Both the position numbers and the translations under genes were made by a program. A DNA stretch of 64,000 nt, taken from the IMG/VR virus record IMGVR_UViG_3300030372_003714, positions 24,721-88,720 of that record, one strand, 5' to 3'. This stretch comes from a virus (lineage: Duplodnaviria > Caudoviricetes). Shown piece by piece: positions 1 through 53,200 of the stretch (position 1 is the stretch's first letter; each line of letters opens with the position of its first letter). The notes beneath the pieces were generated by a model. That model ran no database searches, was not told the origin of the DNA, and worked only from the letters and a program-made list of their open reading frames with translations.

Positions 1-3000
1 ACCACAATCAGTACAATCTCCATTTGGATCTCCTGAAACTAAATTTACAGGGTTAATCAGTGCAACTCCTCCTGGACATGGATTTATTATATCAACTTCC
101 CAACATCTTTCGCCTGCTGGATCTCCATTATCCCAAGTTATAATTCCTCCAACATATCCTGCAAGAGCCGGATCATCAGAATATTCTGTAATATACGTAC
201 ATCCAGAACCTTGTAAACACACACCATCTTCACATCCAAAATTTACATTTGGATTTCCATATATACCACATGTAGCTCTTCTATCATATATTCCTTCTGG
301 GCCCATTAAACCTGTAGGGAAATCAGTAGCAAAAGAATTACTACTTGAGAAAGGTCCCATTAATGCATCAGCATTATAAATAGCGCCTGGGCAATTATCA
401 GGTAAACCATCGTTATCATTATCTTGATAAAGATTAGGACAAGTAGGATCACTTTGGAAACAAGGACAATCACAAAGACTATCACATCCATTAGCTGCTC
501 CAAATGTTAACCAATCATGGCCATATCCAAATGCGTGTAGTATTTCGTGTATACCTACTCTAATTAAAGAAAATGAATTTGCTACTACTGCATCTCCTGC
601 TTTTCTCCAGTTTTCATTTGCATCAAATAATAATAAACCTACTTCTGGAGAAGCTTTAGCAATTCCTGGATCATTGAAATTTAAATTTCCTGTAAAGCAT
701 AATCCTAATATTCCTGAAGCTCCTCCAGTATTACCACATCCACTTCCTCCTGCTGGATCTAATGCTCCAAAGTCTGAGAATCCAATTCTAAAGTCTCCTA
801 TTCCTGCTACTCCATTACTATCAGTAAAAGATGTTCCATTGTTACCAGTTATAGTGTTTGTTCCCATTGCTGGATCACCTGCAGTATATCCAGTTTCATA
901 TCCTAAATCTGTAAAGTTAACAGTTAAATTAGCTCCATATCCACAGTTTGTATTAAATACTCCTTCAAGCATTGCTTTAATTTCAGCAAACATTGTTTGC
1001 ATTTCTGCCTTAAACTGTACATGTGTAATCGTATATGTTTTATTATAAGGAGCACAAAATGGCCAAGAACTAATTCCTGTTGTATTAGCTGTACCTGGCC
1101 CTTGTTCACAAGCTAAAGCTGGACCAAAACCAGGAATACCTATTGGGAATGTAGCTCCATCGTTAATGAAACTATAGCTAAAGTCTACTGTTTGTGCTAT
1201 ACCTGGTGCTCCCTGTGTTCCTAATGCTTGTACTGCATTTACTAATGCCGCCCACCTTTGTGGTGTATTATTTATACATGTAGGAGACCAAGTCTTTCCG
1301 TATGTAACCATATTCGGAGGCATCGTTGCTGGATCATTTACTGAACACTGATTAGCTGGTCCAGAAGTTCCTCCTGTACATTCACACTCTGTTAATTTAT
1401 AACAGAAGTTTGGTGGAGGTGCACAATCTGTACAATCATTATGTGTAACTGTAATAACAGGATCTGGGTTAATCACATTAGCCGGATCACATGGACAAGG
1501 CATATTTAACCATGTTGGGAATCTTTCTCCCATAGGTCTATTACCTATATCATAAGAAGGAACTGGATTTATAAGCTCTAGTCCCTGCTCTATTGCTAAT
1601 GCATTATTAGGATCATCTAATCTTAATAATGAATTTGTTATTTGATTTCCTGCTCCTACTTTTAGCATGTATGGATTATCTTGTAACTGTTCTACTATAT
1701 TTAGCCAAAGTTTACCATCTGGTCCTACAACTAAATCATTAATCATAACATTACATCTAGTTACATCTGTCGGAGTTCCATACCATCCTGAAGCAGTAGA
1801 TGCATCAGGGAATGATTTAACATGGTCTGTATAGCCTCCTGCAGAATTTGTAAACCACATAAATGGAGCCGCGTTCGGTCCTGCAGCATCAAATGCAGCA
1901 GCATCATCTGTTTCATTGTAAAATACAAAAGCTTGTTGAGCGGCCATTTCTATAGCTAATCCTTTTAATTTTAAGATTATTATCCCAAATCCACTTTTAA
2001 TTAAGGTATTATTATAAGGATCATTTGTATCATAATATTGAGTCCCTGATAAAATTAAGTTTCTTCCATTAGGACTAAAAGCCATAGAATCTACTCTGTC
2101 AAGAAAATAATCACCTACATATGCTCCAAGTGTAGGAGATTTTTCTCGGTGTATCCCAAGAACAATGGAATTGAAAACTCCATTGTTTGCTCCTCCGTTA
2201 TAACCATTATTGAATGTCCATCCTATTGCTGCAGTCGCTGAATCTCCTGTAACAGGATTTAACCCAAAAGCAAAGGTTTCTGAAGCTACGTTATTAAGAT
2301 CATCCCCTTCAAACCTTACAGCTATAATATCATTTGTTTGATTTACTAATAATTCACCAGATCCTATTGTCTGGGTTCCAGATGCAGCTGAATTATTCCA
2401 TCTACCAGTTACGACATCTACTGCAACAAACGCTGTACCTATTCCGGCACTACTAAATTTAATACCTTTGATATGCTGATTAGCCCAATCTGCACCGTTA
2501 GACATAACAGGAACATAGTAGAAATGCCAGTAAGCGCCAGATCCTATTCCCGTAGTTGTATTTACACACATAACCTCAGATGCTGATGCTGCTAAAGTCG
2601 TATTGTCAGATGCAGCTAGTACTTCTCCTTTTCCTGAATTAAGAGTCATATCAACTATAGACCATTTTATAGGACCATTTCCAGCACTATTTTGTATTAC
2701 ATAATACTGATGCCACACTCCATCTGTTACTCCTCCTGCAGCGTTTGGAATAATTACTGCTCCTTGAGCTGGGAATGTTTTACCATCTGAACTTGTTGCT
2801 CCTTGATTTGCATTTCCCTCATGTACGGGACCTGAATCAAGATTCATTTTAGTGTGAGTTCTATCATATATCCAATGACCGTCTGTATAGAACATTAAAT
2901 CTCCTGCCGCAAAAGCGTGTCCACCTATAGTAGCTGCTCCTGTTGCAGAATGTACTGCTGCTCCTCTAAAAGTATAAGCATCTGAATTTGGTGCATTCGA

Positions 3001-6000
3001 GGAGTTAAAGTTTAACATAGTAGATTGTCCATTAAAATCTGCTACCGGTGCTCCTGTACTAAAATCTATTCCTAGTCTATCTCCATAGAACCAATTTGTA
3101 CCTGCTATTGGATTTCCTTGGCTAGTACATTGTTTCCAACATCCTATTTGTCCTCCTAATTCTACTACATCTGTTCCTATTGTAGCACCAAGTCCTCCTG
3201 ATACAGTTATTGTTGTTCCTGGATTAGTACATGATTCTAATAATGTACATTGAGGATCACATGGATTTACTAAACAATAACTACAATCTGGCATATTACC
3301 TGTTCCTACTGTTGCTGTAGCTATCGCAGTTACATCTGCATCTGGTAGCATACCAGTACAATCAGCACTAGCACTTACTGTCCAACATCCTGTATAAAGA
3401 ATACCACCTACTGTTATATCTGCTTGAACTACAGATCCTACATCAGCAGCTGTAATACCTGTTGTTACATTAACAATTTGATCTGGTACATATGAAGGAC
3501 CACAACAATGTGCTACTTTTACACATGTTTGTCCTGAAGTAGCGCAATCTGCACAATCTGCATAAGACGCAGTTATTGCTCCAGTAGGATATACTACTGT
3601 TGTAGGTCCTAAACAACCTACTAATACTTTATGACAATTATCTTGTGCTACTCCCCCTATTGTAATATCATGAGCATTAGCTGCTCCAATAAAAGGATGA
3701 AGTGTCGGAGAATTCAAATAATCAACACTAGTTATATTTCCTGTAACACAATCTTCAACTCTTAAATAATATCTACAAGAAGCACAATCTACTTGGGTAG
3801 ATGATACAGTTAGAGCTGCCTCAGTTCCTTGAGGACCGGTTGGATTAATTTGTATTTCTCTACAGAAACATTCTCCTGCTAAATGTACTACTACTCCTGC
3901 TGCAAAATAAGCATCTATTAATGGAGTTGATGTAGCTCCTACTCCATTAACTGTATATACAACATCAGTAGGATCTCCACATTTTGGTAATTTATAATAT
4001 ACTGTTGGATCTGGAGTACAAGTAGGACAATCTGAATATGGCCCAGGACTAGTATCTAATATAACTGATACTGGGCTTATACAAGTTGGAGATTTTTCTA
4101 CATACCAACAAGTACCTCCTTGAAGTCTTACATATAAACCTATATAAGGAGATAATATAGCTTGAGTACTATATTGTATAACTCCTGTATCACAATTTGT
4201 TAATTTATAGCAACAATCTTCTGTACCTGGTGCACTTAAACAATCAACACAGTCTGTATATAAAGTTACACTAGGATCTGTATTATTTGGCCACTTAGAA
4301 CATATATCATTATAACCTAAACCTGTAGGAATATTCGTCCAAGCATTTGTTGCTGTAACTGGGTTAATTAAACCTATTACAGCTGTCTGTCCAGTACCAG
4401 CATCATTTAATGTATGTAAAAATAATTCATAATTACCAATACCTACTAGCTTTGCAGATATAATATAAGTAATACTAGTAGCTATACTAAGACCTCTAAC
4501 TCTTTCTATACCATATGCATCTTGTCCTGCAACAAAACTACAAACAGTAGCTAAGTCAGATATTACTGTATGATTACCATTAGCATCATCAATGCTCATT
4601 AATTTATTTAAACCTCCAGCTCCAGTATTATCTCCTAATACATAATAATCACCGCTATTATAATCTACAGATAAATCATATCCTAAACTAATAGTTGCAT
4701 TAGTTACACTACCTGCTATTGCTATACCTCCGCTTAAAGAATTAGTATATCTAGCAAACGTCGCATTTCCTCCTACCATATCACCTGCTACAATATGTCC
4801 TGTTGCACTATAATCATAATCTAAACATTGAGGAACTGTAAAAGCATTGGTAATTAGCTCAGGATCAGATATATAACTTGGCCACGCTGATGCCCAAGAT
4901 ATATCAGTAGCGCCTGATGTATATATAATATTACCATGTTTATCAAATGTTAGATCTTTTAGATTACCTATAACACCATTCCATGTAGTAAATTCAGAAA
5001 TAGAACAAGTACCATTTAGTACATTATCAATAGAATAAATATTTCCATCTTCAGAAGTAAACCAAAAATGCTCTGTTGGAGCTGTTGCTTCACCACAAAC
5101 TGGCGTTCCTCCATTACTAACTGAATATACATCGCCAGCTACTACAGTAGTTAAATCATTAGTAATTATTCCAGGCATTTCTACTGGGCCTAAAGAATAC
5201 GTTCCTCCTGTTGGAGTTGTAGCTTCAATACAACATGGTAAAAATCCTATACATCTATCTTGAAAAACATCTAAACATGCTCTACAAGTATTATAAAAAG
5301 TATCAGGTTGTTGCCAGTCACAAGGTTGAACATGATGTGTAGTAGGAATTTCTGATGTATAACAAAAGAAACATCCTCTATGCTCTCCAGTAGCTGGTAG
5401 TTGCCAAACATCTGTATTAGGATCATTACATTTACCTGCATAGAATGCATAATCTGGATCTATACCTAATATTCTTAATGGGCTGTTCTCAAAATACCAA
5501 GCTGCATTTGCAGTTGAACATGACATAGGAAGACTTGTCCAAGGGAAAAGTCCAGGATCTGTAACTATTGAAGTAGCAAATGCTGCCCAAACTATAGCAG
5601 CACCTGATGCTACATCCCCATTATGTGTTACTGTTGAACCTAAAGCTCCTGTTGTAATCTGTACTTTATCCGTACCACCAATTCTAGAAATTGTTATAGT
5701 AGTAATATTTCCTGGAGCTGCATTTGTACATAAAGTCCAAGCCCCTGCTACTGTATCATATATAGCTACTCTATCACCAAAAGCTACATATACTAACTGA
5801 AGTGATACATCTACTCTACTATATGTGGCAACAGCAGTAGGATGTTTACCTGCTAATGCGCCTCCAAATGCAGATGATATATCAATTTGAGACGCGGCAG
5901 ACCAAGCGCTTACTTCATTAGTATCTGTTTTTATAGCACCAATACTATAAATATTAGTTTCTCCTGCTTTTAATCCTACAAATTGAAATGTATCACATAA

Positions 6001-7887
6001 TAGATCGGTAGTAGGATTTGTTTGTCCTCCACTTGCTGGGCCAGTCCACATCACATGACTTACAGCTTTAATAGATGCCCAATTAGCTAAATTAGCTCCA
6101 CCTATTGCTTGTGGATTTGTTATTGTAGAATTATCACTATTCCATTTTAAATAGCTAACACTATTACCCCCGGTTGGAGAATCCCATATATACAGATTAT
6201 CAGTATATTGATTATGTGCTAATCCTATAACTCCTGCGGCACTTAATTGCCCAATATCTGCAAGTTTATTTACTCTAGCAGTTGTAACAAGATTAGTAAC
6301 GAGCCAAAGACCTTTATCAGTATCTAAGTATACCATGTCACCCTGATTACACTTTTTAATTAAAAGATCAGGATTAGCTGAAGTTGCATATGTACATGGA
6401 GTAAATTGTGGGGCTCCATATCTATAATATGTATTATCTAATAAAGTACCTACCATACTAGCTGTAGGAGCAGTAGTTACCGGAGCGTTTACATTTTCTA
6501 TAATACAGTGTTGTATTGGATTACTTGTTGTTGTATCATTTGTACTGTATATTTCTGGATAATGTGTACTCCAAGTTGGGCTAGTAAAGGTTACTGATAA
6601 AGTCCATTCACCAGTTTTTAATGGTGTAGAAACAAAAATTCTTCCACTTTTTTGTGGATCTCTCCATATACCTGCAATAATTCTTCCGTTATGATTTGGC
6701 TCCCATATATTAATTCCTGCATTATCATTAATATCTATAGCTCCCTTATTTGTTACAGACCATACATTTAAGCTATTTATTTCATTCCAAGCAATTTGTA
6801 AAGTAGGAGAAGCAGCCCCAGAAGAATCTAAATTACCATAATAAAGATGTCCCTTAGTAGCTGTACTATCATGAGACCAAACAGCATACATATTATAATA
6901 TCTAGAATCGTCTCCTGGAGAAGCTGGCCATGGTCTTGGTCCTTTGTCTAATCCATTTGTATTTTGGTATGTTGGATTAGATAGTTGTCCTGTAGTACCA
7001 TCAAAAGAGAGAACTTCAACTTTATCTAAAAGTTGCGGAACATCATTAGTTCCGACAGTAGGTCTATATATTGTTGCTACTTTATGATTATTTACTCCAG
7101 TTGTAGATATTTCTAAAGGTGTAACATCTACTACACCATGAGGACCATTATCTTGCCAGCCAGTATAATTTGTACCTACAGCACTCACAATAGGCACACT
7201 ATAAGATTGATCAATTATAGGCCATCCAGTTGAGTTTACTGCTAGAATTTGCCATGTAAGCCATCCATTATCAGTCCAAGTACCAGAACTAGAAGTAGCT
7301 GACTTTGCAATTATCCAAAATCCACTATCATATGCTGGATTAGGAGCTTTATATGTTCTTCTGCATATTGTTGCCATACGTCCCCCAACACCAGTTTGAG
7401 AACCCGATAATGTACCTAGTGTTCCTCCTGGAGGAGTTTGTCCAGATAATGTATAATTACTAAATGTTCCTAATCCACCATCACCTGACATATCAACTAA
7501 TCCTACTCGTATACCACTGGTTAAAGCATTTGAGAATACCCAATAATATCTACCTTTATCAATTTTTGCTACGTCAGCTAACGTATCTGGAACTTTAACT
7601 ATATTTACAGATTGTGGTAAACTTTTAATTCCTCCAGTAGTACTGGAGCCATTCATTATATTACCAGTTCTATTAAAAATTTGATTACCGTCAGAAAAAA
7701 ACATCAAGTCTCCATCAGCATAAGACTGTGCTCCATGAGTTACTGCACCATCTGCAGTTATTGTTGCACTAGACCAATGAGCAGTACGATCAGGAACACT
7801 TTCATTTATTGGAGGAGTGGCACCATTTATTGTATTAGTTAGTATTTGAGTACCTGTAAACCACTTTTGATAATCTTTTGCTGACAT
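1..7887 (-). CDS. Giant (>2,629 aa, runs off left edge) modular virion/fibre-like protein: two beta-propellers, Cys-rich repeats, matrixin-like M10 metallopeptidase
   Basis: ATG at 7887 (MSAKDYQKWFTG...), 19 nt downstream of the 7906 gene. Every segment I translated by hand stays open in one frame down to base 1. Its absence from the ORF track fits an ORF with no stop in the window. HEILHAFGYGH at 517-549. Confidence 0.9.
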   Translation of the reverse strand, partial: MSAKDYQKWFTGTQILTNTINGATPPINESVPDRTAHWSSATITADGAVTHGAQSYADGDLMFFSDGNQIFNRTGNIMNGSSTTGGIKSLPQSVNIVKVPDTLADVAKIDKGRYYWVFSNALTSGIRVGLVDMSGDGGLGTFSNYTLSGQTPPGGTLGTLSGSQTGVGGRMATICRRTYKAPNPAYDSGFWIIAKSATSSSGTWTDNGWLTWQILAVNSTGWPIIDQSYSVPIVSAVGTNYTGWQDNGPHGVVDVTPLEISTTGVNNHKVATIYRPTVGTNDVPQLLDKVEVLSFDGTTGQLSNPTYQNTNGLDKGPRPWPASPGDDSRYYNMYAVWSHDSTATKGHLYYGNLDSSGAASPTLQIAWNEINSLNVWSVTNKGAIDINDNAGINIWEPNHNGRIIAGIWRDPQKSGRIFVSTPLKTGEWTLSVTFTSPTWSTHYPEIYSTNDTTTSNPIQHCIIENVNAPVTTAPTASMVGTLLDNTYYRYGAPQFTPCTYATSANPDLLIKKCNQGDMVYLDTDKGLWLVTNLVTTARVNKLADIGQLSAAGVIGLAHNQYTDNLYIWDSPTGGNSVSYLKWNSDNSTITNPQAIGGANLANWASIKAVSHVMWTGPASGGQTNPTTDLLCDTFQFVGLKAGETNIYSIGAIKTDTNEVSAWSAASQIDISSAFGGALAGKHPTAVATYSRVDVSLQLVYVAFGDRVAIYDTVAGAWTLCTNAAPGNITTITISRIGGTDKVQITTGALGSTVTHNGDVASGAAIVWAAFATSIVTDPGLFPWTSLPMSCSTANAAWYFENSPLRILGIDPDYAFYAGKCNDPNTDVWQLPATGEHRGCFFCYTSEIPTTHHVQPCDWQQPDTFYNTCRACLDVFQDRCIGFLPCCIEATTPTGGTYSLGPVEMPGIITNDLTTVVAGDVYSVSNGGTPVCGEATAPTEHFWFTSEDGNIYSIDNVLNGTCSISEFTTWNGVIGNLKDLTFDKHGNIIYTSGATDISWASAWPSYISDPELITNAFTVPQCLDYDYSATGHIVAGDMVGGNATFARYTNSLSGGIAIAGSVTNATISLGYDLSVDYNSGDYYVLGDNTGAGGLNKLMSIDDANGNHTVISDLATVCSFVAGQDAYGIERVRGLSIATSITYIISAKLVGIGNYELFLHTLNDAGTGQTAVIGLINPVTATNAWTNIPTGLGYNDICSKWPNNTDPSVTLYTDCVDCLSAPGTEDCCYKLTNCDTGVIQYSTQAILSPYIGLYVRLQGGTCWYVEKSPTCISPVSVILDTSPGPYSDCPTCTPDPTVYYKLPKCGDPTDVVYTVNGVGATSTPLIDAYFAAGVVVHLAGECFCREIQINPTGPQGTEAALTVSSTQVDCASCRYYLRVEDCVTGNITSVDYLNSPTLHPFIGAANAHDITIGGVAQDNCHKVLVGCLGPTTVVYPTGAITASYADCADCATSGQTCVKVAHCCGPSYVPDQIVNVTTGITAADVGSVVQADITVGGILYTGCWTVSASADCTGMLPDADVTAIATATVGTGNMPDCSYCLVNPCDPQCTLLESCTNPGTTITVSGGLGATIGTDVVELGGQIGCWKQCTSQGNPIAGTNWFYGDRLGIDFSTGAPVADFNGQSTMLNFNSSNAPNSDAYTFRGAAVHSATGAATIGGHAFAAGDLMFYTDGHWIYDRTHTKMNLDSGPVHEGNANQGATSSDGKTFPAQGAVIIPNAAGGVTDGVWHQYYVIQNSAGNGPIKWSIVDMTLNSGKGEVLAASDNTTLAASASEVMCVNTTTGIGSGAYWHFYYVPVMSNGADWANQHIKGIKFSSAGIGTAFVAVDVVTGRWNNSAASGTQTIGSGELLVNQTNDIIAVRFEGDDLNNVASETFAFGLNPVTGDSATAAIGWTFNNGYNGGANNGVFNSIVLGIHREKSPTLGAYVGDYFLDRVDSMAFSPNGRNLILSGTQYYDTNDPYNNTLIKSGFGIIILKLKGLAIEMAAQQAFVFYNETDDAAAFDAAGPNAAPFMWFTNSAGGYTDHVKSFPDASTASGWYGTPTDVTRCNVMINDLVVGPDGKLWLNIVEQLQDNPYMLKVGAGNQITNSLLRLDDPNNALAIEQGLELINPVPSYDIGNRPMGERFPTWLNMPCPCDPANVINPDPVITVTHNDCTDCAPPPNFCYKLTECECTGGTSGPANQCSVNDPATMPPNMVTYGKTWSPTCINNTPQRWAALVNAVQALGTQGAPGIAQTVDFSYSFINDGATFPIGIPGFGPALACEQGPGTANTTGISSWPFCAPYNKTYTITHVQFKAEMQTMFAEIKAMLEGVFNTNCGYGANLTVNFTDLGYETGYTAGDPAMGTNTITGNNGTSFTDSNGVAGIGDFRIGFSDFGALDPAGGSGCGNTGGASGILGLCFTGNLNFNDPGIAKASPEVGLLLFDANENWRKAGDAVVANSFSLIRVGIHEILHAFGYGHDWLTFGAANGCDSLCDCPCFQSDPTCPNLYQDNDNDGLPDNCPGAIYNADALMGPFSSSNSFATDFPTGLMGPEGIYDRRATCGIYGNPNVNFGCEDGVCLQGSGCTYITEYSDDPALAGYVGGIITWDNGDPAGERCWEVDIINPCPGGVALINPVNLVSGDPNGDCTDCG

Positions 7888-7905: not shown

Positions 7906-8586
7906 TTATACTTCCTGTTTAGGATAACACTTTAATTCAACCCAGTGACCACTTTCATGGAATCCTGTATTCATAGGATTAGGTTCTGTAATACTAATAA
8001 AATATTTACCTCTTTTAGTTTGATTTGCTCCTACTCCTCCGCCCATAAATCTAACTATATCTCCCATACCATAAACTACTGATGCGTCCCAATCAACACT
8101 TCCTGCAGCTTGCCAAGCTTCTTTTACATGCCCACAAACACTCCATGTTGCTGGACCAATTCCATTAAGTCCTGTCATACAAGGAAAAGCGAAACCAGTA
8201 TTATCAAAACATGTGCCTGCTGGTTGTACCAAAGGGGCTACTCCTTGCCATCTTAAATATAAATATTCTCCTGGATTTGCGTTTGGTTTCATATAAGCTT
8301 TTACTACTTTTCCGTATGGGATAGTTCCATAAGATTGTGTCCAAACAATACTACCATCTAATTCCCACTCACCTTTACAATTACAAGGTAATGGTGAATA
8401 ACATTCTATAATTTCAATATAAGCTCCTAAAAGTTTTAAATTGCATAGTTCATCTTTACACTCTTTTCCAAAGCGTTGTTTATCAACTAGTTCTGCTGCT
8501 TTTGTAGCAAAGCAACATTTTAACTTATTTAATCTATAAGTTATATCATATTCTGTTATTACTGTAGGCGTCGCTGTTTTACTCAT
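7906..8586 (-). CDS. Cys-rich structural protein with C-terminal CBM5/12-like (chitin-binding type 3) motif
   Basis: WDASVVYGMGDIVRF...YFISI...HWVEL resembles the W-x5-Y-x2-GD-x-V CBM5/12 pattern; lies in the structural operon. Confidence 0.5.
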   Translation of the reverse strand: MSKTATPTVITEYDITYRLNKLKCCFATKAAELVDKQRFGKECKDELCNLKLLGAYIEIIECYSPLPCNCKGEWELDGSIVWTQSYGTIPYGKVVKAYMKPNANPGEYLYLRWQGVAPLVQPAGTCFDNTGFAFPCMTGLNGIGPATWSVCGHVKEAWQAAGSVDWDASVVYGMGDIVRFMGGGVGANQTKRGKYFISITEPNPMNTGFHESGHWVELKCYPKQEV

Positions 8587-9428
8587 TACAATTTCATTAT
8601 AAAGGCTAATACATAGTATTTATTAGTAATATCAACATTTGCTCCATTTGGTGCAGAAAGTCCTGATGATGTTCCATCTCCTGTTTGTCCACTTATATTT
8701 GTTGTTGCTTGATGATTGTGTATACCTGCCCAAGTAGTCCAATATTGTCCTACTGAATTACCACCACCTTTATCAGCCATACCTCCTGTAACACCGTTTG
8801 CTGCATCAATCTGGTGTCTGTGATTTCCATTATCTGCAATAGTTGTAATTGCTGTTAAAGTATTTCCGCTATGTGTATGTGCTGGGATTTGAGAAGGCTC
8901 TAGATTTACTGTAAATGATCCTCCACTAGCTCCTAAATTATTAAAGGGACTATAAGCAATATTATCTCCAAAAGCTCCTACAAAATGACCTCTTAAATCT
9001 GGAGTCCCTTGAGTTCCATCACAAAAAGCCCACCCTTGTGGAATAGAGGCAACATTACCTTTCCACATGCATATTACTCCTGCAGGAATTGCTCCTCCAG
9101 GTCCTAATACAGTAGAAATAATATTACCTGCATTATATGTATTTGGGCATGGCGCAGCCGTACCAGTAGTAACTATAACATCTCCAGTAGTATTACCATC
9201 TAAACCATCAGATATATATACATCTGTTAAGGAACATCCGTCTGCTCCATCTGCTCCTGGTAATCCATTTGTACCATTTACACCTGGAGGTCCTTGGGGA
9301 CCTTGAGGTCCTACGGGTCCTGTATCTCCTACAGGAATGTCACAACTATTTGCTTCTGCACATGTGTTACAATCACACGAGCAATGTTGAGGTGTTACAC
9401 ACCCATTTAAACAACTTTCACATGCCAT
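8586..9428 (-). CDS. Fibre protein with collagen-like repeat and phage tail-collar domain
   Basis: G-X-Y run GDTGPVGPQGPQGPPGVNGTNGLPGADGADG; collar motif IPAGVICMWKG...IPQGWAFCDG...TPDLRGHF; IPAHTH and HNH microcystin-dependent-type C-terminus. Confidence 0.8.
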   Translation of the reverse strand: MACESCLNGCVTPQHCSCDCNTCAEANSCDIPVGDTGPVGPQGPQGPPGVNGTNGLPGADGADGCSLTDVYISDGLDGNTTGDVIVTTGTAAPCPNTYNAGNIISTVLGPGGAIPAGVICMWKGNVASIPQGWAFCDGTQGTPDLRGHFVGAFGDNIAYSPFNNLGASGGSFTVNLEPSQIPAHTHSGNTLTAITTIADNGNHRHQIDAANGVTGGMADKGGGNSVGQYWTTWAGIHNHQATTNISGQTGDGTSSGLSAPNGANVDITNKYYVLAFIMKL

Positions 9429-9440
9429 TAAATATCTTTT

Positions 9441-10049
9441 TTATGAAGACGTGCATGATGCACAAGTCCCCTTATAATTACACAATTTATTTACCTGTTT
9501 TGCCATTTTCGCGGCTTTAGTTAAACTTCCACAGGTATAAGCATATAACATGGCTTTATAAAGTGTATAAGCTTCAAGAGCATTTGACTTATCTTCTCCA
9601 CAAGGACACTCATCACATATATCTAGATTTGCTAACATCTTGTGTACACAACATTTAATTACACTAGACATTAATCCATATTTTCTTTTTGTGATTAAGA
9701 ATCCGCCTTGAGTTCCGTCATTTACTAATATTCTATATTCAAATTCATAGATACCTTGAATTACCGTTTGACCTGCAGCTCCTCCTAAAAGACCCATATG
9801 AATATTAAATTCTCCATTTATTCCATTAGGAAGATCTGGAGAAATCATTGTAAAGTCTAATACGTATTTGGTTCCGCTCGGAGTAGTTACAATAATCTCC
9901 GCATCTAAAACGTCCCCTAATTCATAATTAGGTGTACCCCATCCACCAGGAGTGAATTGACTATATACACCTGTTATATCTGTAAATATAATACTTTTAT
10001 TATCGCATGCTTCGTGTATCCTAAAATCTACTTTTGTTATTCCAGCCAT
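9441..10049 (-). CDS. Putative virion structural protein with Cys-rich helical C-terminus
   Basis: Beta-rich N-terminus and CC/CxxC-containing C-terminus; located among structural genes. Confidence 0.5.
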   Translation of the reverse strand: MAGITKVDFRIHEACDNKSIIFTDITGVYSQFTPGGWGTPNYELGDVLDAEIIVTTPSGTKYVLDFTMISPDLPNGINGEFNIHMGLLGGAAGQTVIQGIYEFEYRILVNDGTQGGFLITKRKYGLMSSVIKCCVHKMLANLDICDECPCGEDKSNALEAYTLYKAMLYAYTCGSLTKAAKMAKQVNKLCNYKGTCASCTSS

Positions 10050-11542: not shown

Positions 11543-12244
11543 TTATTCTCCTGTAATTTCTGTGACCATATGACTCTGGAATCTTGGACTTGCTATATTC
11601 TCTAATGCTAAACCAACAGCTATACTCACAATTTCTATATGTGTATGTTCTGCTAATTCACATGACATTAGTGGAAAATTAGTAATATCCAATCTAATCG
11701 GTTGTCTTATGTATCTCAAAAAATACTGGTTTATTGTAAAAGTCCCGTCTGTAATTAACTCTGCCCATCTTCCATGCATCAAACGTAATACAACGTTCTT
11801 TGTTGGTTTATTAAATGGGTCATCTACCAATTTATCGTAATCATTATGAGACGTCGCATAAACTCCTGTTCTTTCGTCTACCCAACTGCCATTGCAGTCT
11901 TCATAACGTATTTCACATTCTTCATTAATGGCGAACCAATAAATGTCCGGACTTATACTCCCATCAGGCAAATCGAATAATATTCCATTTGGTTTAGTTG
12001 GGGTTTGTATCGCAGACGGAATTATTGTTGCTTCTGTAACAATAGTTCTTAAATCATCAGTACGTTTTTGCGTTTCCTCAAATGTTTCCGTTTTTTGGTT
12101 GTGTACATAACGTGTTTTTACAAAACGATCTTGAGCTCTATTAAGCCAAAGATCGATTTCTTCAGGTTCAAAGTTAGGGTAGTTAAGACTATCTGTCTTA
12201 TCTAACCCTAATTTGAATTCTATGTGCATTTCTGCTAATGTCAT
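11543..12244 (-). CDS. Tail ring/adaptor protein (crAss-like, P22 gp4-like)
   Basis: N-terminal MTLAEMHIEFKLGLDK...FEPEEIDLWLNRAQ pattern of crAss ring proteins; YIRQP and HTHIEIV motifs. Confidence 0.75.
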   Translation of the reverse strand: MTLAEMHIEFKLGLDKTDSLNYPNFEPEEIDLWLNRAQDRFVKTRYVHNQKTETFEETQKRTDDLRTIVTEATIIPSAIQTPTKPNGILFDLPDGSISPDIYWFAINEECEIRYEDCNGSWVDERTGVYATSHNDYDKLVDDPFNKPTKNVVLRLMHGRWAELITDGTFTINQYFLRYIRQPIRLDITNFPLMSCELAEHTHIEIVSIAVGLALENIASPRFQSHMVTEITGE

Positions 12245-15822: not shown

Positions 15823-16872
15823 TTATTCATATCTATAAATCTCATTTTTCTTTACAAAGTTTTCAAAACCATAATTTACATCATTCCACTTAGAGGTCAT
15901 ATAGCCTTTTTTGTGTTTATATGGAGTTGAATAATCTTTTTTGTATGTACCTCTATCCATATTCCACAGTACATACATTTTAGTTTCGTTGTTCATTTTC
16001 TTATACCAAGTTGACCATCCTGCTTTTTTATCTTCAGCAGATAATGATTTCCAGAATATATCAAAATTAGTTGGGCCCATATTATATGCAGCAAATGTTC
16101 TAGCTTTTCTTTCTTCTGTTGTTGTAGCAGATTTTACATTACTTCTATCTTCATATATATAATCCATATAACGTCTTTGAGCTAATGCTTGAGCAGCTGG
16201 ATCTGTTATCTTAGCTGTCTCTGGAATCCATCCTTTTTCTTTTGCCCATTTAAATGTGCTTGGTAAAAACTGTGCTACACCCATTGCTCCTGCATCTGAA
16301 ACTACAGAATTCTTTCCACCAGATTCTTTCCATATTTGAGCTTGGAATTCTTCTTCAGTAAAATATGGATTAGTATAGTTCTCTAACTGTCGGTTTACTA
16401 GACTTTGATTTATTGCACTATAAGTCTTATTACCCCAAGCACCATCAACAGTAATATTTCTACCTTCTGATACTGCTAGGTTTTGTTGATCTGTAATATA
16501 TTCAGTATCATCTTTTTTAGATCTATAATGATCTATATCTGCCCATCCATATTTATTAACTTTAAAATTTGATTTTTTTAATTCTTCTGGAATAACTGGA
16601 CCTATACCACTGAAGTATGGATCTTCTTGTGTAGCCTCTGTAACAGGTATTTGTTGTTCTATTAAACCAACATTTGCTCGTAGTTCTCTTGGATCAACAG
16701 TAGGTACAGGATCTTTAGTACCATATTCTGCTTTAATTCTTTTTCTCCATTCAGGATTAGCCCCAACAAAACCTGATATTTTTGGCATAGATGGAACCTC
16801 CTTTTTAGGAGAACTTTCAAGGTTTCCTCCAAATCTTGCTTTTCTATATTCTGAAAATAACTTACTGTGCAT
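15823..16872 (-). CDS. Lytic transglycosylase (SLT) with putative peptidoglycan-binding motif
   Basis: QIWKESGG (catalytic Glu), AGAMGVAQFLPSTF, FAAYNMGP; upstream ITVDGAWGNKTYSAI resembles a PG-binding repeat. Confidence 0.85.
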   Translation of the reverse strand: MHSKLFSEYRKARFGGNLESSPKKEVPSMPKISGFVGANPEWRKRIKAEYGTKDPVPTVDPRELRANVGLIEQQIPVTEATQEDPYFSGIGPVIPEELKKSNFKVNKYGWADIDHYRSKKDDTEYITDQQNLAVSEGRNITVDGAWGNKTYSAINQSLVNRQLENYTNPYFTEEEFQAQIWKESGGKNSVVSDAGAMGVAQFLPSTFKWAKEKGWIPETAKITDPAAQALAQRRYMDYIYEDRSNVKSATTTEERKARTFAAYNMGPTNFDIFWKSLSAEDKKAGWSTWYKKMNNETKMYVLWNMDRGTYKKDYSTPYKHKKGYMTSKWNDVNYGFENFVKKNEIYRYE

Positions 16873-50254: not shown

Positions 50255-53200
50255 TTATTTTAAATCAAAGAACTTAATCTTATCTCTAGGATCTGTCCCA
50301 AGTTCTTTGAATAGTAAGACATTACGTATGTATTTATTAATCTTAGCGTCGCCTTTCTCATATCGTCCTGTTTTTCTCTTATATCTTTCTACATCTCCGC
50401 CTAATATTATAGACCATGAGTCATCCCACGCCTGGCTTAATAATTTACTATACGCTTCTATTGTAGTTAAGTTCGCAGCAGGTGTTCTTAAGATCTCATA
50501 GAATGATGACCCTAATGGATTATAGAATGCAAGCTCTGACTGAATTCTCTTAATTGAGTAAAGAGCATACCAGTCTACTGCTGACCTATCTTCCGGTTCG
50601 TCGTCCATTCCAAAGAACGCTAGTCCTAAGATGGTTAAGAAATAAAAACCTGCTACTTCACCTAAACCACGTTTTATATTTGCTTGCTGCCATGACTCAA
50701 GTTCTCTATAACGTTCTTTCATAGTAAAGAACTGTAATCTTTTGAAGTCTCTTCCTAGCTGGCCTATAAATTTAACAGCTGTTACATAGTTTCCTTCCAT
50801 ATAGGATTCTAGTCTCTCGTTGTAATTAGGCCCTTTTATATCAGATTCTTGATCATAAAATAATTTTTCTGCCCCTTCAAATCTACGACGGTATCCAGGT
50901 CTTAACCACTTACGGAATTGTAATGCCCATCTACCTGCAGCATATTGTTGAATAGCGGCTTTATCTTTCTCATTATAAATACCGTGTAACCTTTGGTATA
51001 ATGCTTGTATTTTTTCTGAGAATAAGATTCTATCTTGTTCACTAAATTGTGATGCTACTTCAGGGTCTAGTACTAATTTACCTTTTTCTCCTATACTGTA
51101 TGCATCCCATAAGTTAATAGTTCCTTTGCTAGTTTTAAATTTCTTATTAAACATCATAGCCATGGCAAGCTGACTTTGTATCATATGCTCACCCGCACTC
51201 ATCATAAAGTATAAAGCTCCTTGATTCATTCTTAATCCTAATTGCTTAGGGTTAAGTTTTCTACCATATTCATCAAACTCTTGAAGTACATTAAATAATT
51301 CATTCATCTGACCTAACTTAGATTTAGGGGCCCTAGCTAGAGTATCTGCTATTAGTCCAGCACCTCCTAGTTGATCTGTTGAAGTATATGCTAAATATTT
51401 TGTTTTCGCTTTAGTCCAATCTTTCATGTTAAAGAACTGCCCAGCCCATGCTTCAGTAAAGTTCATTATAGAACCAAATCCTATATTGGCTACAGCTGCT
51501 TTATCATTCATTGCTAATACTCTTAAACTACCAAGTTGTAGTAATGCATCACTTATCTGATCTGCATTTGTAGTCTTACCAAATATTGTAATAGCACCTC
51601 CCATTTTCTTACGCTTACCATATACAACCATATTAAAATAGTCTTCTAGTCTTTGGTATGCTTTAGAGTCTATACCAGCAAAATCAATATCTTCTCCTGT
51701 AATCGCATCTGGTACTGGCATTCCACTCTTACGCTTTTTAACACGTCTAGTTCTAACTAATTCTTTTGCTGCTTCTATCTCTGGTAGGATTTGTTGCATC
51801 TCATTAAAGTTATTAGCCATTGTGTAATACATTTTTAATCCACTAGATAAATCATAACTTACATCTGCTGGACTTAATTGTCCTTCTGCATTTCCAATTC
51901 TAGATGAATAATGTACAGGTATATAACTCATAGGATCTCCTGCGGCATCAACATACTCACCCCACATAATATTATCCTGTGCTTTACCAAATACTTCTAG
52001 CATCTTTTCACGGATAGCATTAATACTACCTTTAAATACACCATTATGTTCTGGATTCATAAACCATCTCTCTGCTTGAGTCGCTCTTAAACCTGGTAAT
52101 GCATTTCCACGTTGATATGCTTTAGGTAAGAAGTTTTGAGCCTCATTATAATGTTTCTTATAGAAGTCATAATATTGTTTCCTAGGATCAGAAGCTTCCA
52201 TGTTTTGTACCTCTTTGTACTTTTCACTTAAATAAGATTTAGGAGAATTCTGTAACCATTTATTATATTTACCTTTAGTATTATCTTCTTTATAAAATTC
52301 AGCCCATTGTACTTCACTCAATGCGTAACCTGCATCAAGTTTTTCATTCATAAACTTATCTCTAGCTACTTTAAATTCAGGCATATATTCTTGAATTATA
52401 TGTCCTGTTAGATTTCCTGCTTTGTCTGCTTCTAGCATAAAACCAAATAACTCTCGATATTTCCATATAGAAACGCCAAGTCCTGATTGGAAGTCCTCTA
52501 GCTTTTTAGTTAAATCCAATAAGGCTCCTTCACCGTGTACTAAATCATATTCTGCTTTGTTTACTTTACCTCTCTGTATAGTAACCATCTTATCTACCAT
52601 AGCTAATGATGGATCACTTGAGTCTCCTAAAGCATCCATCCATCTAGCAATCCACGTTATATCACTTCCAGCTAGCTGTAATTCCTCCATAAACTTATCA
52701 GGATTATTTTTATACTCCGGATTAGAAGTTAGTGCTGCAAATTTATCAGCAATAAGAGGCCTTAATAATGATTTAATATCCTCTAATACAAGATTTCTCT
52801 TTGCTATAGCTGGTTGTACATACTTCTCTAATAAATTTTCATAACCAGATTCAGCTAATAGAGGGGCCATTAATGTTACCTCTTCAAGTATACCGTACGC
52901 ATTTACAAAATCTTTTATTTGAAGTAGTATTCTAGGATTTAATGCGTCATCTTTCTTTAATTGATTAAGTCTTCTATGCGCATTATTAAGATCTGCTACA
53001 GCACGTTTTGTAAATAATACTAATCCTTCTTTCTCGTTAAGCTCTTCCATCTCATTAAAGATTTCTTTAAGCCTATTAGCATAATCACTATTACCCTTAT
53101 CCTTAGAATATAAAGCAATCTTTCTTTCTAATATTCCTTTAGCTTTTTTAAATACTTTTAATACATTATTGTATTCATCCTGCTTCATCATTGTATCATG

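What the first reader, a model, noticed from the sequence alone, without database searches (positions are those of the whole stretch)
1..7887. Unlisted >2,629-aa multidomain protein: host-type propellers, Cys-rich repeats and a protease in one phage chain
Seen: one open frame from ATG 7887 to base 1, absent from the ORF track. Approximate order N to C: propeller 1, further propeller-like/beta regions, a Cys-module array, propeller 2, a Cys linker, a matrixin domain, then more Cys modules. It follows the collagen-fibre and CBM genes in the late operon. Inference: a giant virion appendage (adhesin-protease) for binding and digesting host surface or biofilm material. I do not recall this architecture among characterised crAss-like virion proteins.
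Basis: partly seen in the sequence, partly recalled or inferred. Interest (0 to 1): 0.8.

Follow-up and report, generated by a model that had tools for sequence, protein, structure and literature searches.

The report
Giant protease-bearing fibre protein, marine crAss-like phage
A marine crAss-like phage encodes one 3,837-residue, cysteine-rich protein that joins beta-propellers, a matrix-metalloprotease-like enzyme and an adhesion-type end domain; it is probably an external virion fibre that binds and cuts host surface proteins, a design not described for these phages.

Summary
The open frame is real, but the window shows only its first 2,629 residues. On the full 88.7-kb genome it is one 3,837-aa gene (404.6 kDa, 159 Cys).

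At least 13 full-length relatives (34-62% identity) sit at the same place in ~87-89-kb crAss-like genomes, several from Tara Oceans samples. None is annotated.

Domain map:
- N-terminal propeller-like domain.
- Two orphan beta-rich regions.
- Eight full ~70-aa Cys modules.
- A seven-bladed beta-propeller (Z 16.7).
- An M10 (matrixin)-type metzincin with invariant HExxHxxGxxHD and Met-turn, and a Cys-rich insert between them.
- A fast-evolving ~140-aa cassette, duplicated here.
- Five small 4-Cys repeats.
- A vWA-like end domain (Z about 6.9, tentative).

"Host-type" is partly right. A ~130-aa sub-domain of both propeller regions is homologous to the N-termini of Bacteroidota T9SS-secreted surface proteins.

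The gene closes a conserved block of four Cys-rich genes that includes a collagen/tail-collar fibre. The presumed ejected proteins have no cysteine. This supports an external virion appendage, but virion location and protease activity are inferred, not shown.

The scan has not noted this on other DNA. I rate it a new variant of a known kind (enzyme-bearing phage fibres), interest about 0.6.

The parts
1..7887 (-). Window part (aa 1-2629) of the 3,837-aa giant gene. The gene continues 3,626 nt beyond the left edge of the window (to genome 21094). Parts outside the window, in locus L002 coordinates (minus strand): aa 2634-2711, full Cys module, L002:9475-9708; aa 2733-3018, fast-evolving cassette (two tandem ~140-aa copies here, one in most relatives), L002:8554-9411; aa 3021-3166, two full Cys modules, L002:8110-8547; aa 3172-3368, five small 4-Cys repeats, L002:7504-8094; aa 3385-3837, conserved vWA-like end domain (tentative), L002:6097-7455.
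   Evidence: Frame. Outside-window parts: modules and small repeats; cassette; end domain.
6388..7887 (-). aa 1-500: N-terminal propeller-like domain (D1)
   Evidence: hhalign 99.1% between aa 8-146 and the start of propeller 2. The BFVD piece covering aa 1-1279 matches the propeller-2 model at E 4.9e-13. No PDB sequence hit.
7432..7782 (-). aa 36-152: sub-domain shared with Bacteroidota T9SS surface proteins (copy 1)
5488..6390 (-). aa 500-800: orphan beta-rich region (D2), least conserved of the N-terminal regions
   Evidence: no hits
5230..5430 (-). aa 820-886: cluster of nine invariant cysteines
4288..5220 (-). aa 890-1200: orphan beta-rich region (D3); only weak language-model leads to NHL/DUF4394 propeller or Ig-like clusters
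3127..4251 (-). aa 1213-1587: array of four full ~70-aa Cys modules (CYKLTxC ... CW/YxV ... YxDCxxC) plus a partial one
   Evidence: 43-60 bits each
1483..3120 (-). aa 1590-2135: seven-bladed beta-propeller (D4). aa ~1634-1780 is copy 2 of the T9SS-cargo-like sub-domain.
   Evidence: AF2 pLDDT 66, pTM 0.76; VIA Z 14-16.7; Foldseek E 2e-5; host homology
1276..1497 (-). aa 2131-2204: Cys-rich linker (module C-half plus a CYKLTEC start)
208..1275 (-). aa 2205-2560: M10 (matrixin)-type metzincin domain with a Gly-rich loop and a 33-50-aa Cys-rich insert before the Met-turn
514..549 (-). aa 2447-2458: HEILHAFGYGHD zinc-binding motif, invariant H, E, H, G, H, D
352..366 (-). aa 2508-2512: Met-turn A-L-M-G-P, invariant
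4..207 (-). aa 2561-2628: full Cys module after the protease
   Evidence: 40.8 bits
7906..8586 (-). 226-aa Cys-rich (4.9%) protein just upstream; no known family
8586..9428 (-). 280-aa Cys-rich (4.3%) collagen-repeat plus phage tail-collar fibre protein
9441..10049 (-). 202-aa Cys-rich (5.0%) protein, first gene of the conserved four-gene Cys-rich block
11543..12244 (-). Crassvirus tail ring protein 3/4 (context marker)
   Evidence: PF25710, 74.9 bits

Best explanation
The gene encodes a ~405-kDa external virion appendage (a tail fibre, or possibly a head fibre) of a marine crAss-like podophage. It is built as a string of independently folding globular domains separated by small Cys-rich spacer modules.

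Proposed mechanism (inferred): the N-terminus docks on the virion. The propellers, the fast-evolving ~140-aa cassette and the vWA-like end domain bind components of the Bacteroidota cell surface. The embedded matrixin-type zinc protease cuts surface proteins (for example T9SS-anchored adhesins or a protein coat), so that the short tail can reach the outer membrane. The many conserved cysteines stabilise the protein outside the cell, through disulfides or bound metal.

Shown: the gene, its conservation and synteny, the propeller fold, M10-type homology with intact catalytic motifs, the repeat families, and homology of a sub-domain to host T9SS cargo.

Inferred: virion location, adhesion, protease activity and substrate, and the state of the cysteines.
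For: - Real, conserved gene: 3,837-aa frame; 13 full-length relatives plus more distant ones; 11 further viral loci for the end domain.
- Fixed position in the crassvirus structural module, between Ring_3_4 plus a collagen/tail-collar fibre gene and Ring_2, Ring_1 and muzzle. In PhiCrAss001 the tail-hub genes lie between R3/R4 and R2, and fibres dock on that hub (PMC10172136).
- Composition: the giant (4.1% Cys) closes a conserved block of four Cys-rich genes (5.0, 4.3, 4.9, 4.1%). The four large post-muzzle proteins (1,282, 1,139, 996 and 4,536 aa) have 0.0% Cys. PhiCrAss001 external tail parts are disulfide-stabilised.
- No signal peptide or membrane segment; pI 4.27.
- Protease: HExxHxxGxxHD and ALMGP are invariant. 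The family profile finds 85 proteins; 10 of 10 tested carry Pfam Peptidase_M10 above its cut-off. hhalign gives 99%, E 3e-18.
- Binding-type domains: seven-bladed propeller at Z 16.7; propellers occur in other phage fibre and appendage proteins; vWA-like end domain.
- A fast-evolving, copy-number-variable cassette, as expected for a specificity determinant.
- A sub-domain shared with Bacteroidota T9SS surface proteins, E 7e-11 to 4e-5 at a database size of 1.8e9.
Against: - No direct evidence that the protein is in virions: there is no isolate, proteome or map.
- No sequence similarity to any characterised crassvirus fibre, and no PHROG family.
- Classical fibres are trimeric. Propeller, metzincin and vWA domains are normally monomeric, and no trimerisation element was found.
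- The end domain is highly conserved (mean column identity 67%), unlike typical receptor-binding tips.
- The vWA assignment is weak: Z 6.9, model pLDDT 62, and the third MIDAS serine is not conserved.
- This protein's own Pfam M10 score is below the cut-off (18 vs 24 bits).
- The long insert before the Met-turn is unusual and could affect activity.
- About 1,200 N-terminal residues remain without any assigned fold.
Confidence: 0.6

Rival explanations
1. A free, non-virion exoprotein released at lysis. In this reading it is a soluble adhesin-protease that strips receptors or surface proteins from debris and neighbouring cells (receptor-destroying, limiting futile adsorption or superinfection), or digests particle or biofilm protein.
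For: Intact metzincin motifs. No recognisable virion-attachment or trimerisation element, and no PHROG structural family. All domains are of the kind found in secreted bacterial proteins.
Against: The gene is embedded between ring and fibre genes, in a conserved Cys-rich block with a tail-collar fibre protein. Investing 11.5 kb, 13% of the genome, in a non-structural accessory that is kept in every relative is harder to explain.
Confidence: 0.15
2. A capsid (head) fibre or decoration that tethers the virion to particles, mucus-like matrices or cell surfaces, rather than a tail fibre that mediates infection.
For: PhiCrAss001 carries trimeric and dimeric head fibres. The bead-like modular build, vWA-like domain and propellers suit generic adherence. 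The end domain is conserved rather than variable.
Against: The neighbour carries a phage tail-collar domain. The gene lies among tail ring genes, not next to the capsid and auxiliary genes. A protease is not expected for passive adherence.
Confidence: 0.1
3. A polyprotein: the embedded metzincin cuts the 3,837-aa precursor into several separate fibre or accessory proteins.
For: A protease lies in the middle of a very long multidomain chain. Domains are separated by repeated linker-like modules.
Against: No relative encodes the parts as separate genes. The one apparent split (P0010) is a frameshift in a contig labelled 2x coverage. Metzincins are not known as phage maturation proteases (my own knowledge). 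Conserved Cys modules look like structural spacers, not cleavage linkers.
Confidence: 0.07
4. An internal cargo protein packed in the capsid or tail and ejected into the host.
For: Crassviruses carry large cargo proteins, and the protein is very large.
Against: It is the most Cys-rich large protein in the genome, whereas the four large post-muzzle proteins have no cysteine at all. Propellers and Cys-knit modules would be hard to thread through a tail channel. The gene lies upstream of the muzzle gene, not in the post-muzzle block.
Confidence: 0.03

Closest known systems
Flagellinolysins (proteolytic flagellins; PMC5595980, PMC7643111)
   Same: An M10-type metallopeptidase domain is built into a structural, extracellular filament protein, so the appendage itself is proteolytic. 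Two flagellins with an inserted M10 domain are the closest short relatives of the phage protease profile (E 5.8e-17 and 4.5e-16). The segment after the Met-turn (LMxPF ... FPxGL ... YG) is shared.
   Different: The giant has no flagellin N or C domains. The phage enzyme has a 33-50-aa Cys-rich insert between the third His and the Met-turn (7-9 residues in the bacterial relatives). The scaffold is a phage protein with propellers, Cys modules and a vWA-like domain.
Bacterial MMP-like M10 peptidases such as karilysin of Tannerella forsythia (PDB 2xs3)
   Same: The HExxHxxGxxH helix and the preceding FDxxExW strand align; karilysin is the best PDB sequence match. The source phylum, Bacteroidota, is the presumed host phylum.
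   Different: The match is not significant on its own (E 0.5). Asp follows the third His, as in adamalysins, rather than Ser (matrixins) or Pro (serralysins) (my own knowledge of the subfamily signatures). No PRCGxPD cysteine-switch propeptide. The domain is about twice the usual length because of inserts.
PhiCrAss001 tail fibres and fibre-docking hub (gp22, THA gp38, THB gp39; PMC10172136)
   Same: Crassvirus structural module. External tail parts are stabilised by disulfides. The gene interval between Ring 3/4 and Ring 2 is devoted to fibre attachment.
   Different: No detectable sequence similarity. Here a single ~405-kDa chain replaces several small fibre proteins. No protease, propeller or vWA domain is mentioned in the passages of that paper I read.
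Enzyme-bearing phage tail fibres and spikes (depolymerases), and propeller-containing phage appendages (Pectobacterium phage MA13 T7-type fibre, Bacillus phage G gp424-427, GA-1 neck appendage)
   Same: Receptor-binding appendages that carry a catalytic or lectin-like domain; beta-propeller domains occur in them.
   Different: Known fibre enzymes overwhelmingly attack polysaccharide or peptidoglycan, not protein (my own knowledge). My two literature searches found no virion fibre with a matrixin. Size and domain combination differ.
Bacteroidota T9SS-secreted surface proteins (CHU_C / Por_Secre_tail cargo with PKD and SprB repeats)
   Same: Their N-terminal ~130 residues share a signature with both propeller regions of the giant: GDLxFYTDG ... 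YD ... H ... M ... Q ... IVP ... YYxFT ... VDMTLNGGLG. Both are large, modular, surface-exposed proteins.
   Different: The giant has no T9SS sorting domain and no signal peptide. Homology covers only about two blades' worth of sequence at 25-36% identity.

Membership tests
Metzincin clan / peptidase family M10 (matrixin-type) | Extended zinc-binding motif HExxHxxGxxH | tested here: met
   HEILHAFGYGH at aa 2447-2457. H, E, H, G, H are invariant in 14 of 14 aligned members and the motif is present in 16 of 16 scanned.
Metzincin clan / peptidase family M10 (matrixin-type) | Conserved Met-turn downstream of the third His | tested here: met
   A-L-M-G-P at aa 2508-2512 is invariant, followed by the FPxGL ... 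YG segment also seen in M10 relatives. The spacing is unusual: 40-58 residues rather than 7-9. The 3-D position was not modelled.
Metzincin clan / peptidase family M10 (matrixin-type) | Significant match to the curated family model (Pfam PF00413 at or above 24 bits) | tested here: not met
   This protein scores 18 bits, E 0.0028. Eight of 12 relatives match at E<=0.01, best 3.2e-6.
Metzincin clan / peptidase family M10 (matrixin-type) | Homology to bona fide members by profile methods | tested here: met
   The family profile finds 85 proteins at E<=1e-3; 10 of 10 tested carry PF00413 above the cut-off. hhalign gives 99% probability, E 3e-18, over 142 columns.
Metzincin clan / peptidase family M10 (matrixin-type) | Subfamily residue after the third His (Ser in matrixins M10A, Pro in serralysins M10B), and the cysteine-switch propeptide of MMPs | tested here: not met
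   Asp follows the third His in 15 of 16 members, and there is no PRCGxPD motif. The subfamily signatures are from my own knowledge.
Metzincin clan / peptidase family M10 (matrixin-type) | Zinc-dependent peptidase activity | not testable with these tools
   Needs expression and an enzyme assay.
Beta-propeller fold (seven-bladed, WD40/YVTN-like) | Toroidal arrangement of four-stranded blades matching solved propellers | tested here: met
   For aa 1590-2135: VIA Z 14-16.7, 254-295 residues aligned, rmsd 3.5-4 A, 533 chains at Z>=8; Foldseek E 2e-5; TM 0.83 to the independent BFVD model of the same protein.
Beta-propeller fold (seven-bladed, WD40/YVTN-like) | Sequence membership of a named repeat family (WD40, NHL, YVTN, Kelch, etc.) | tested here: not met
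   No Pfam repeat family in any of 13 members scanned. No PDB sequence hit.
von Willebrand factor A / integrin I-like domain | Rossmann-like alpha/beta fold matching solved vWA domains | tested here: inconclusive
   Nearly all of the top 50 rows are vWA or integrin betaI, but Z is only 6.0-6.9 (150-180 residues aligned), and the model has pLDDT 62, pTM 0.74. Foldseek gives nothing at E<=0.001. SGNH hydrolases follow at Z 5.5.
von Willebrand factor A / integrin I-like domain | MIDAS metal site DxSxS ... T ... D | tested here: inconclusive
   D-x-(T/S)-S follows strand 1, and an invariant D-E follows a later buried strand (VILITDEA in one member). The third Ser position is T, V or A.
Crassvirus tail fibre (PhiCrAss001 gp22 type) | Sequence similarity to characterised crassvirus fibre proteins | tested here: not met
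   tblastn of aa 1-2629 against 50,697 phage records: no match. No PHROG family.
Crassvirus tail fibre (PhiCrAss001 gp22 type) | Gene located in the tail/fibre part of the structural module | tested here: met
   Between Ring_3_4 plus the collagen/tail-collar gene and Ring_2, Ring_1 and muzzle, in this genome and in the relatives whose flanks were read.
Crassvirus tail fibre (PhiCrAss001 gp22 type) | Physical presence on the virion, docked to the tail hub | not testable with these tools
   No isolate, proteome or map is available.
Flagellinolysin | Flagellin N- and C-terminal helical domains flanking the peptidase | tested here: not met
   Present in relatives P0034 and P0036, absent from the giant. 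It works like one but is not a member.
T9SS cargo protein | C-terminal sorting domain (Por_Secre_tail / CHU_C) and a signal peptide | tested here: not met
   No such Pfam or NCBIfam hit in the giant. No N-terminal hydrophobic stretch: maximum 19-residue hydropathy is 1.48, at aa 1132. Only the N-terminal sub-domain is shared.

The most novel reading that the evidence does not exclude
This would be the first protein-cutting, rather than sugar-cutting, 'depolymerase' on a phage fibre. A virion-borne matrixin is carried on a single ~405-kDa bead-string chain. It uses a sub-domain borrowed from the host's own T9SS surface proteins to dock into the Bacteroidota surface protein layer, then cleaves that layer to open a path for a short-tailed crassvirus. 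The copy-number-variable ~140-aa cassette would set host range.
Probability: 0.2. Interest if true: 0.8.

Novelty: new variant of a known kind. Interest (0 to 1): 0.6.

Why it matters
Crassvirales are among the most abundant phages of Bacteroidota, yet how they recognise and penetrate the host surface is poorly known, and marine members are uncultured. A conserved 11.5-kb gene, 13% of the genome, that combines a metalloprotease with adhesion-type domains gives a concrete, testable candidate for the adsorption machinery of a marine crassvirus clade.

If the protease is virion-borne and active on host surface proteins, it would extend the idea of fibre-borne depolymerases from glycans to proteins. 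It would also link phage entry to the T9SS-displayed protein coat of Bacteroidota.

The ~70-aa Cys module, the small 4-Cys repeat, the ~140-aa cassette and about 1,200 N-terminal residues match no Pfam family and no PDB sequence. The shared phage/host sub-domain is an uncharacterised N-terminal domain of many T9SS cargo proteins.

Tried and rejected
- Whole-protein Pfam, PHROGs and NCBIfam scans: only a sub-threshold M10 hit.
- tblastn of aa 1-2629 against INPHARED phages: nothing.
- Whole-length profile against PDB sequences: nothing useful.
- Domain profiles against PDB sequences were all non-significant: protease (karilysin, E 0.5), end domain, propeller 2, D1, D2, D3, and the shared sub-domain (staphostatin, E 0.02, judged spurious).
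- Word-indexed searches among shorter proteins, for propeller 2 and for the Cys-module array, returned only fragments of the same family.
- The ESM Atlas gave only sub-0.9 leads.
- The apparent split form in P0010 (3,222 aa plus 447 aa) is rejected as biology. The reading continues in another frame across the gap, and the contig name says 2x coverage.
- The idea that domains are nested inside split Cys modules is only weakly suggested for propeller 2 (module HMM 1-45 before it and 49-72 after it, both individually non-significant). It is not supported for the protease, whose following module is nearly complete.
- A SGNH-hydrolase reading of the end domain was considered (Z 5.5) and ranked below vWA; I saw no GDS / DxxH-type motifs in the alignment sections viewed.
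- No context could be fetched for the distant giant P0032.
- No other ORF in the genome shares any domain of the giant.
Full report
**1. Observation**

With open ends allowed, the window has one minus-strand frame from ATG 7887 to base 1, 2,629 codons. The window is bases 24721-88720 of an 88,720-bp virus record with 92-bp direct terminal repeats.

On the whole record the frame runs on to a TAA at genome 21094, giving 3,837 aa. The protein is 404.6 kDa, pI 4.27, with 159 Cys (4.1%) and no signal or membrane segment.

**2. Genome context**

Pfam places the genome in the Crassvirales:

| Family | Score |
|---|---|
| Crass_capsid | 484 bits |
| Ring_1 | 192 bits |
| Ring_2 | 136 bits |
| Ring_3_4 | 75 bits |
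| Muzzle (crAss_MUZ) | 505 bits |

The nearest catalogued capsid proteins are gut crAss-like phages at under 45% identity.

Gene order on the minus strand is:
- terminase, portal, lysozyme-like protein, 398-aa protein, capsid
- 257-aa protein, Ring_3_4, then 325-, 125- and 202-aa proteins
- 280-aa collagen plus tail-collar protein, 226-aa protein, the GIANT
- small ORFs, a 381-aa nuclease-like protein, Ring_2, a 164-aa protein, Ring_1, muzzle
- proteins of 1,282, 1,139 and ~1,000 aa, then one of 4,536 aa

In PhiCrAss001 the interval between R3/R4 and R2 holds the tail-hub genes, on which the fibres dock. External tail parts there are stabilised by disulfides (PMC10172136).

**3. Conservation**

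Thirteen full-length relatives (3,202-3,844 aa, 34-62% identity) were found, most on 87-89-kb contigs and several from Tara Oceans samples. Nine were fetched with flanks. Every one has the same upstream neighbours (a ~200-aa protein, a ~280-300-aa protein, a ~220-226-aa protein) and, wherever the flank reached far enough, the same downstream genes.

A profile search added P0031, and P0032 (3,595 aa), which keeps the architecture at 25-33% identity. An IMG/VR scan with the end domain gave 11 more loci, all within giant genes of this family.

None carries a functional name. This very protein is UniProt A0A516LFR9, unnamed in the tables at hand. The one apparent split form is a frameshift in a contig labelled 2x coverage.

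Conservation is high along the whole chain except aa ~2750-3000.

**4. Domain map**

*N-terminal domain and propeller 2.* The region aa 1590-2135 was folded with a 12-sequence alignment (pLDDT 66, pTM 0.76). It matches many unrelated seven-bladed propellers:
- Z 14-16.7, 254-295 residues aligned, rmsd 3.5-4 A
- Foldseek E 2e-5
- TM 0.83 to the independent BFVD model of the same protein

The first ~140 residues of the N-terminal domain are homologous to the start of this propeller (hhalign 99.1%). The BFVD piece covering aa 1-1279 also matches the propeller model (E 4.9e-13). No named repeat family fits by sequence.

*Host link.* A scan of one genome per prokaryotic species with the propeller alignment returned 16 loci, all Bacteroidota. 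The ORFs examined are ordinary chromosomal genes for T9SS cargo proteins, with CHU_C or Por_Secre_tail sorting domains, PKD domains and an SprB repeat. The related segment lies at their N-terminus.

With the database size set to 1.8e9, the propeller-2 profile scores them at E 7e-11 to 4e-5, but only over profile positions ~45-190. The N-terminal-domain profile is weaker (best 2.7e-6). A 26-sequence alignment shows seven invariant columns and a shared signature. So 'host-type' holds for a ~130-aa sub-domain, not for whole propellers.

*Orphan regions.* The regions aa 500-800 and 890-1200 gave no PDB or Pfam hits and only weak Atlas leads.

*Cys modules.* A ~70-aa module (CYKLTxC ... CW/YxV ... 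YxDCxxC) occurs in eight full copies of 31-60 bits, plus partial copies. It was not found outside the family. Five small 4-Cys repeats lie at aa 3172-3368. Dozens of cysteines are invariant.

*Protease.* HEILHAFGYGHD and the ALMGP Met-turn are invariant. Pfam M10 is sub-threshold for this protein (18 vs 24 bits) and is matched by 8 of 12 relatives.

The family profile finds 85 proteins among 1.84 billion representatives. All ten short hits tested carry Peptidase_M10 above the cut-off, and the two best are flagellins with an inserted M10 domain. hhalign to one M10 protein gives 99%, E 3e-18, 34% identity over 142 columns.

Differences from typical M10 enzymes:
- Asp follows the third His.
- There is no cysteine switch.
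- A 33-50-aa Cys-rich insert (CxCPC[YF]Q ...) lies before the Met-turn.

*Variable cassette.* Between invariant C2733 and C3018 most relatives have one ~135-148-aa unit. This phage and two others have two tandem units (286-301 aa). Identity to the query there is 27-66%, against 49-83% in the flanks.

*End domain.* The region aa 3385-3837 is well conserved (mean column identity 67%). The model is mediocre (pLDDT 62, pTM 0.74). Foldseek finds nothing significant. Two VIA runs put vWA and integrin betaI domains in nearly all top rows, at Z 6.0-6.9 with 150-180 residues aligned. That is below the level that proves a fold.

A D-x-(T/S)-S motif after strand 1 and an invariant D-E after a later strand resemble a MIDAS site, but the third Ser position varies.

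**5. Where the protein acts**

The strongest indirect argument is compositional. The 202-, 280- and 226-aa proteins and the giant form a contiguous Cys-rich block (5.0, 4.3, 4.9 and 4.1% Cys). This block is conserved in three relatives, and its neighbours are Cys-poor. The four large post-muzzle proteins, about 8,000 residues in all, contain no cysteine.

Proteins that must unfold to pass through the tail should avoid cross-links, whereas parts exposed to oxidising seawater can use them. That step is my inference. Together with the tail-collar neighbour and the ring-gene context, it favours an external appendage.

The domain types suit binding (propellers, vWA-like domain, variable cassette). 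The metzincin suits cleavage of a protein substrate, and the host's T9SS-displayed surface proteins are the obvious candidates (inference). The rival readings (free exoprotein, head fibre, polyprotein, cargo) are weighed in their own sections.

**6. Comparison and novelty**

The protein works like an enzyme-bearing fibre and, in its protease display, like a flagellinolysin, but it is a member of neither. The protease belongs to the M10-type metzincins by profile homology and motifs, and it departs from both classical subfamilies. Two literature searches found no description of such a protein or of a matrixin on a phage fibre. The earlier notes of this scan mention it only on this same genome.

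I rate it a new variant of a known kind. Architecture and conservation are solid. Location, activity and substrate remain to be shown.

Noticed in passing
window 50255-63865 (minus); genome 3-10309 (outside the window, locus L004): A 4,536-aa ORF with no Pfam hit, and three further large proteins after the muzzle gene (1,282, 1,139 and ~996 aa), contain 0.0% cysteine. They are probably ejected cargo or virion RNA polymerase proteins. The ~996-aa ORF runs off the record start and probably continues across the terminal repeat.
   Followed up: partly
L004:17868-19013 (genome coordinates, outside the window): A 381-aa protein lies between the fibre block and Ring_2. It matches a PHROG 'DNA repair exonuclease' family (2e-60) and has weak HNH / I-HmuI NUMOD-like hits. 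It is conserved at this position in all relatives, which is an odd place for a nuclease.
   Followed up: no
L017:10001-20599: A different giant protein (P0033, 3,532 aa) sits on an 80.9-kb contig with no crAss markers in the flanks shown. It also combines an M10 peptidase with a propeller-type repeat (Ldl_recept_b) and Dockerin-type repeats, so propeller plus matrixin in giant proteins may recur outside this clade.
   Followed up: partly
L015:12600-12760: The relative P0010 appears split into 3,222 aa plus 447 aa. The sequence reads through in another frame and the contig name says 2x coverage, so this is probably an assembly frameshift.
   Followed up: yes
window 15826-16872 (minus), compared with L008:553-2448 and L010:1-1955: The lysozyme/SLT-domain protein next to the portal is 349 aa here but 382, 631 and 863 aa in relatives, a large size variation in a virion-associated lysin candidate.
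   Followed up: no
end domain model (aa 3385-3837), row 26: A tail protein of phage N4 (PDB 9lc0 chain I, residues 733-970) appears among the structural matches at Z 5.7, hinting that a vWA-like domain may also exist in an N4 tail appendage.
   Followed up: no
L026:4926-7181, L018:4926-8069, L030:4824-8707 and 13 other Bacteroidota loci: The N-terminal ~130 residues of many T9SS cargo proteins form an uncharacterised conserved domain (no Pfam or NCBIfam model) with the signature FYTDG ... YD ... H ... M ... Q ... IVP ... YYxFT ... VDMTLNGGLG. In L030 two adjacent paralogues carry it.
   Followed up: partly
aa 2489-2497 of the giant (window ~400-425): The DNDNDGLPD calcium-loop-like stretch noted by first readers lies in a part of the protease insert that is absent from most relatives, so it is not a conserved feature.
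   Followed up: yes
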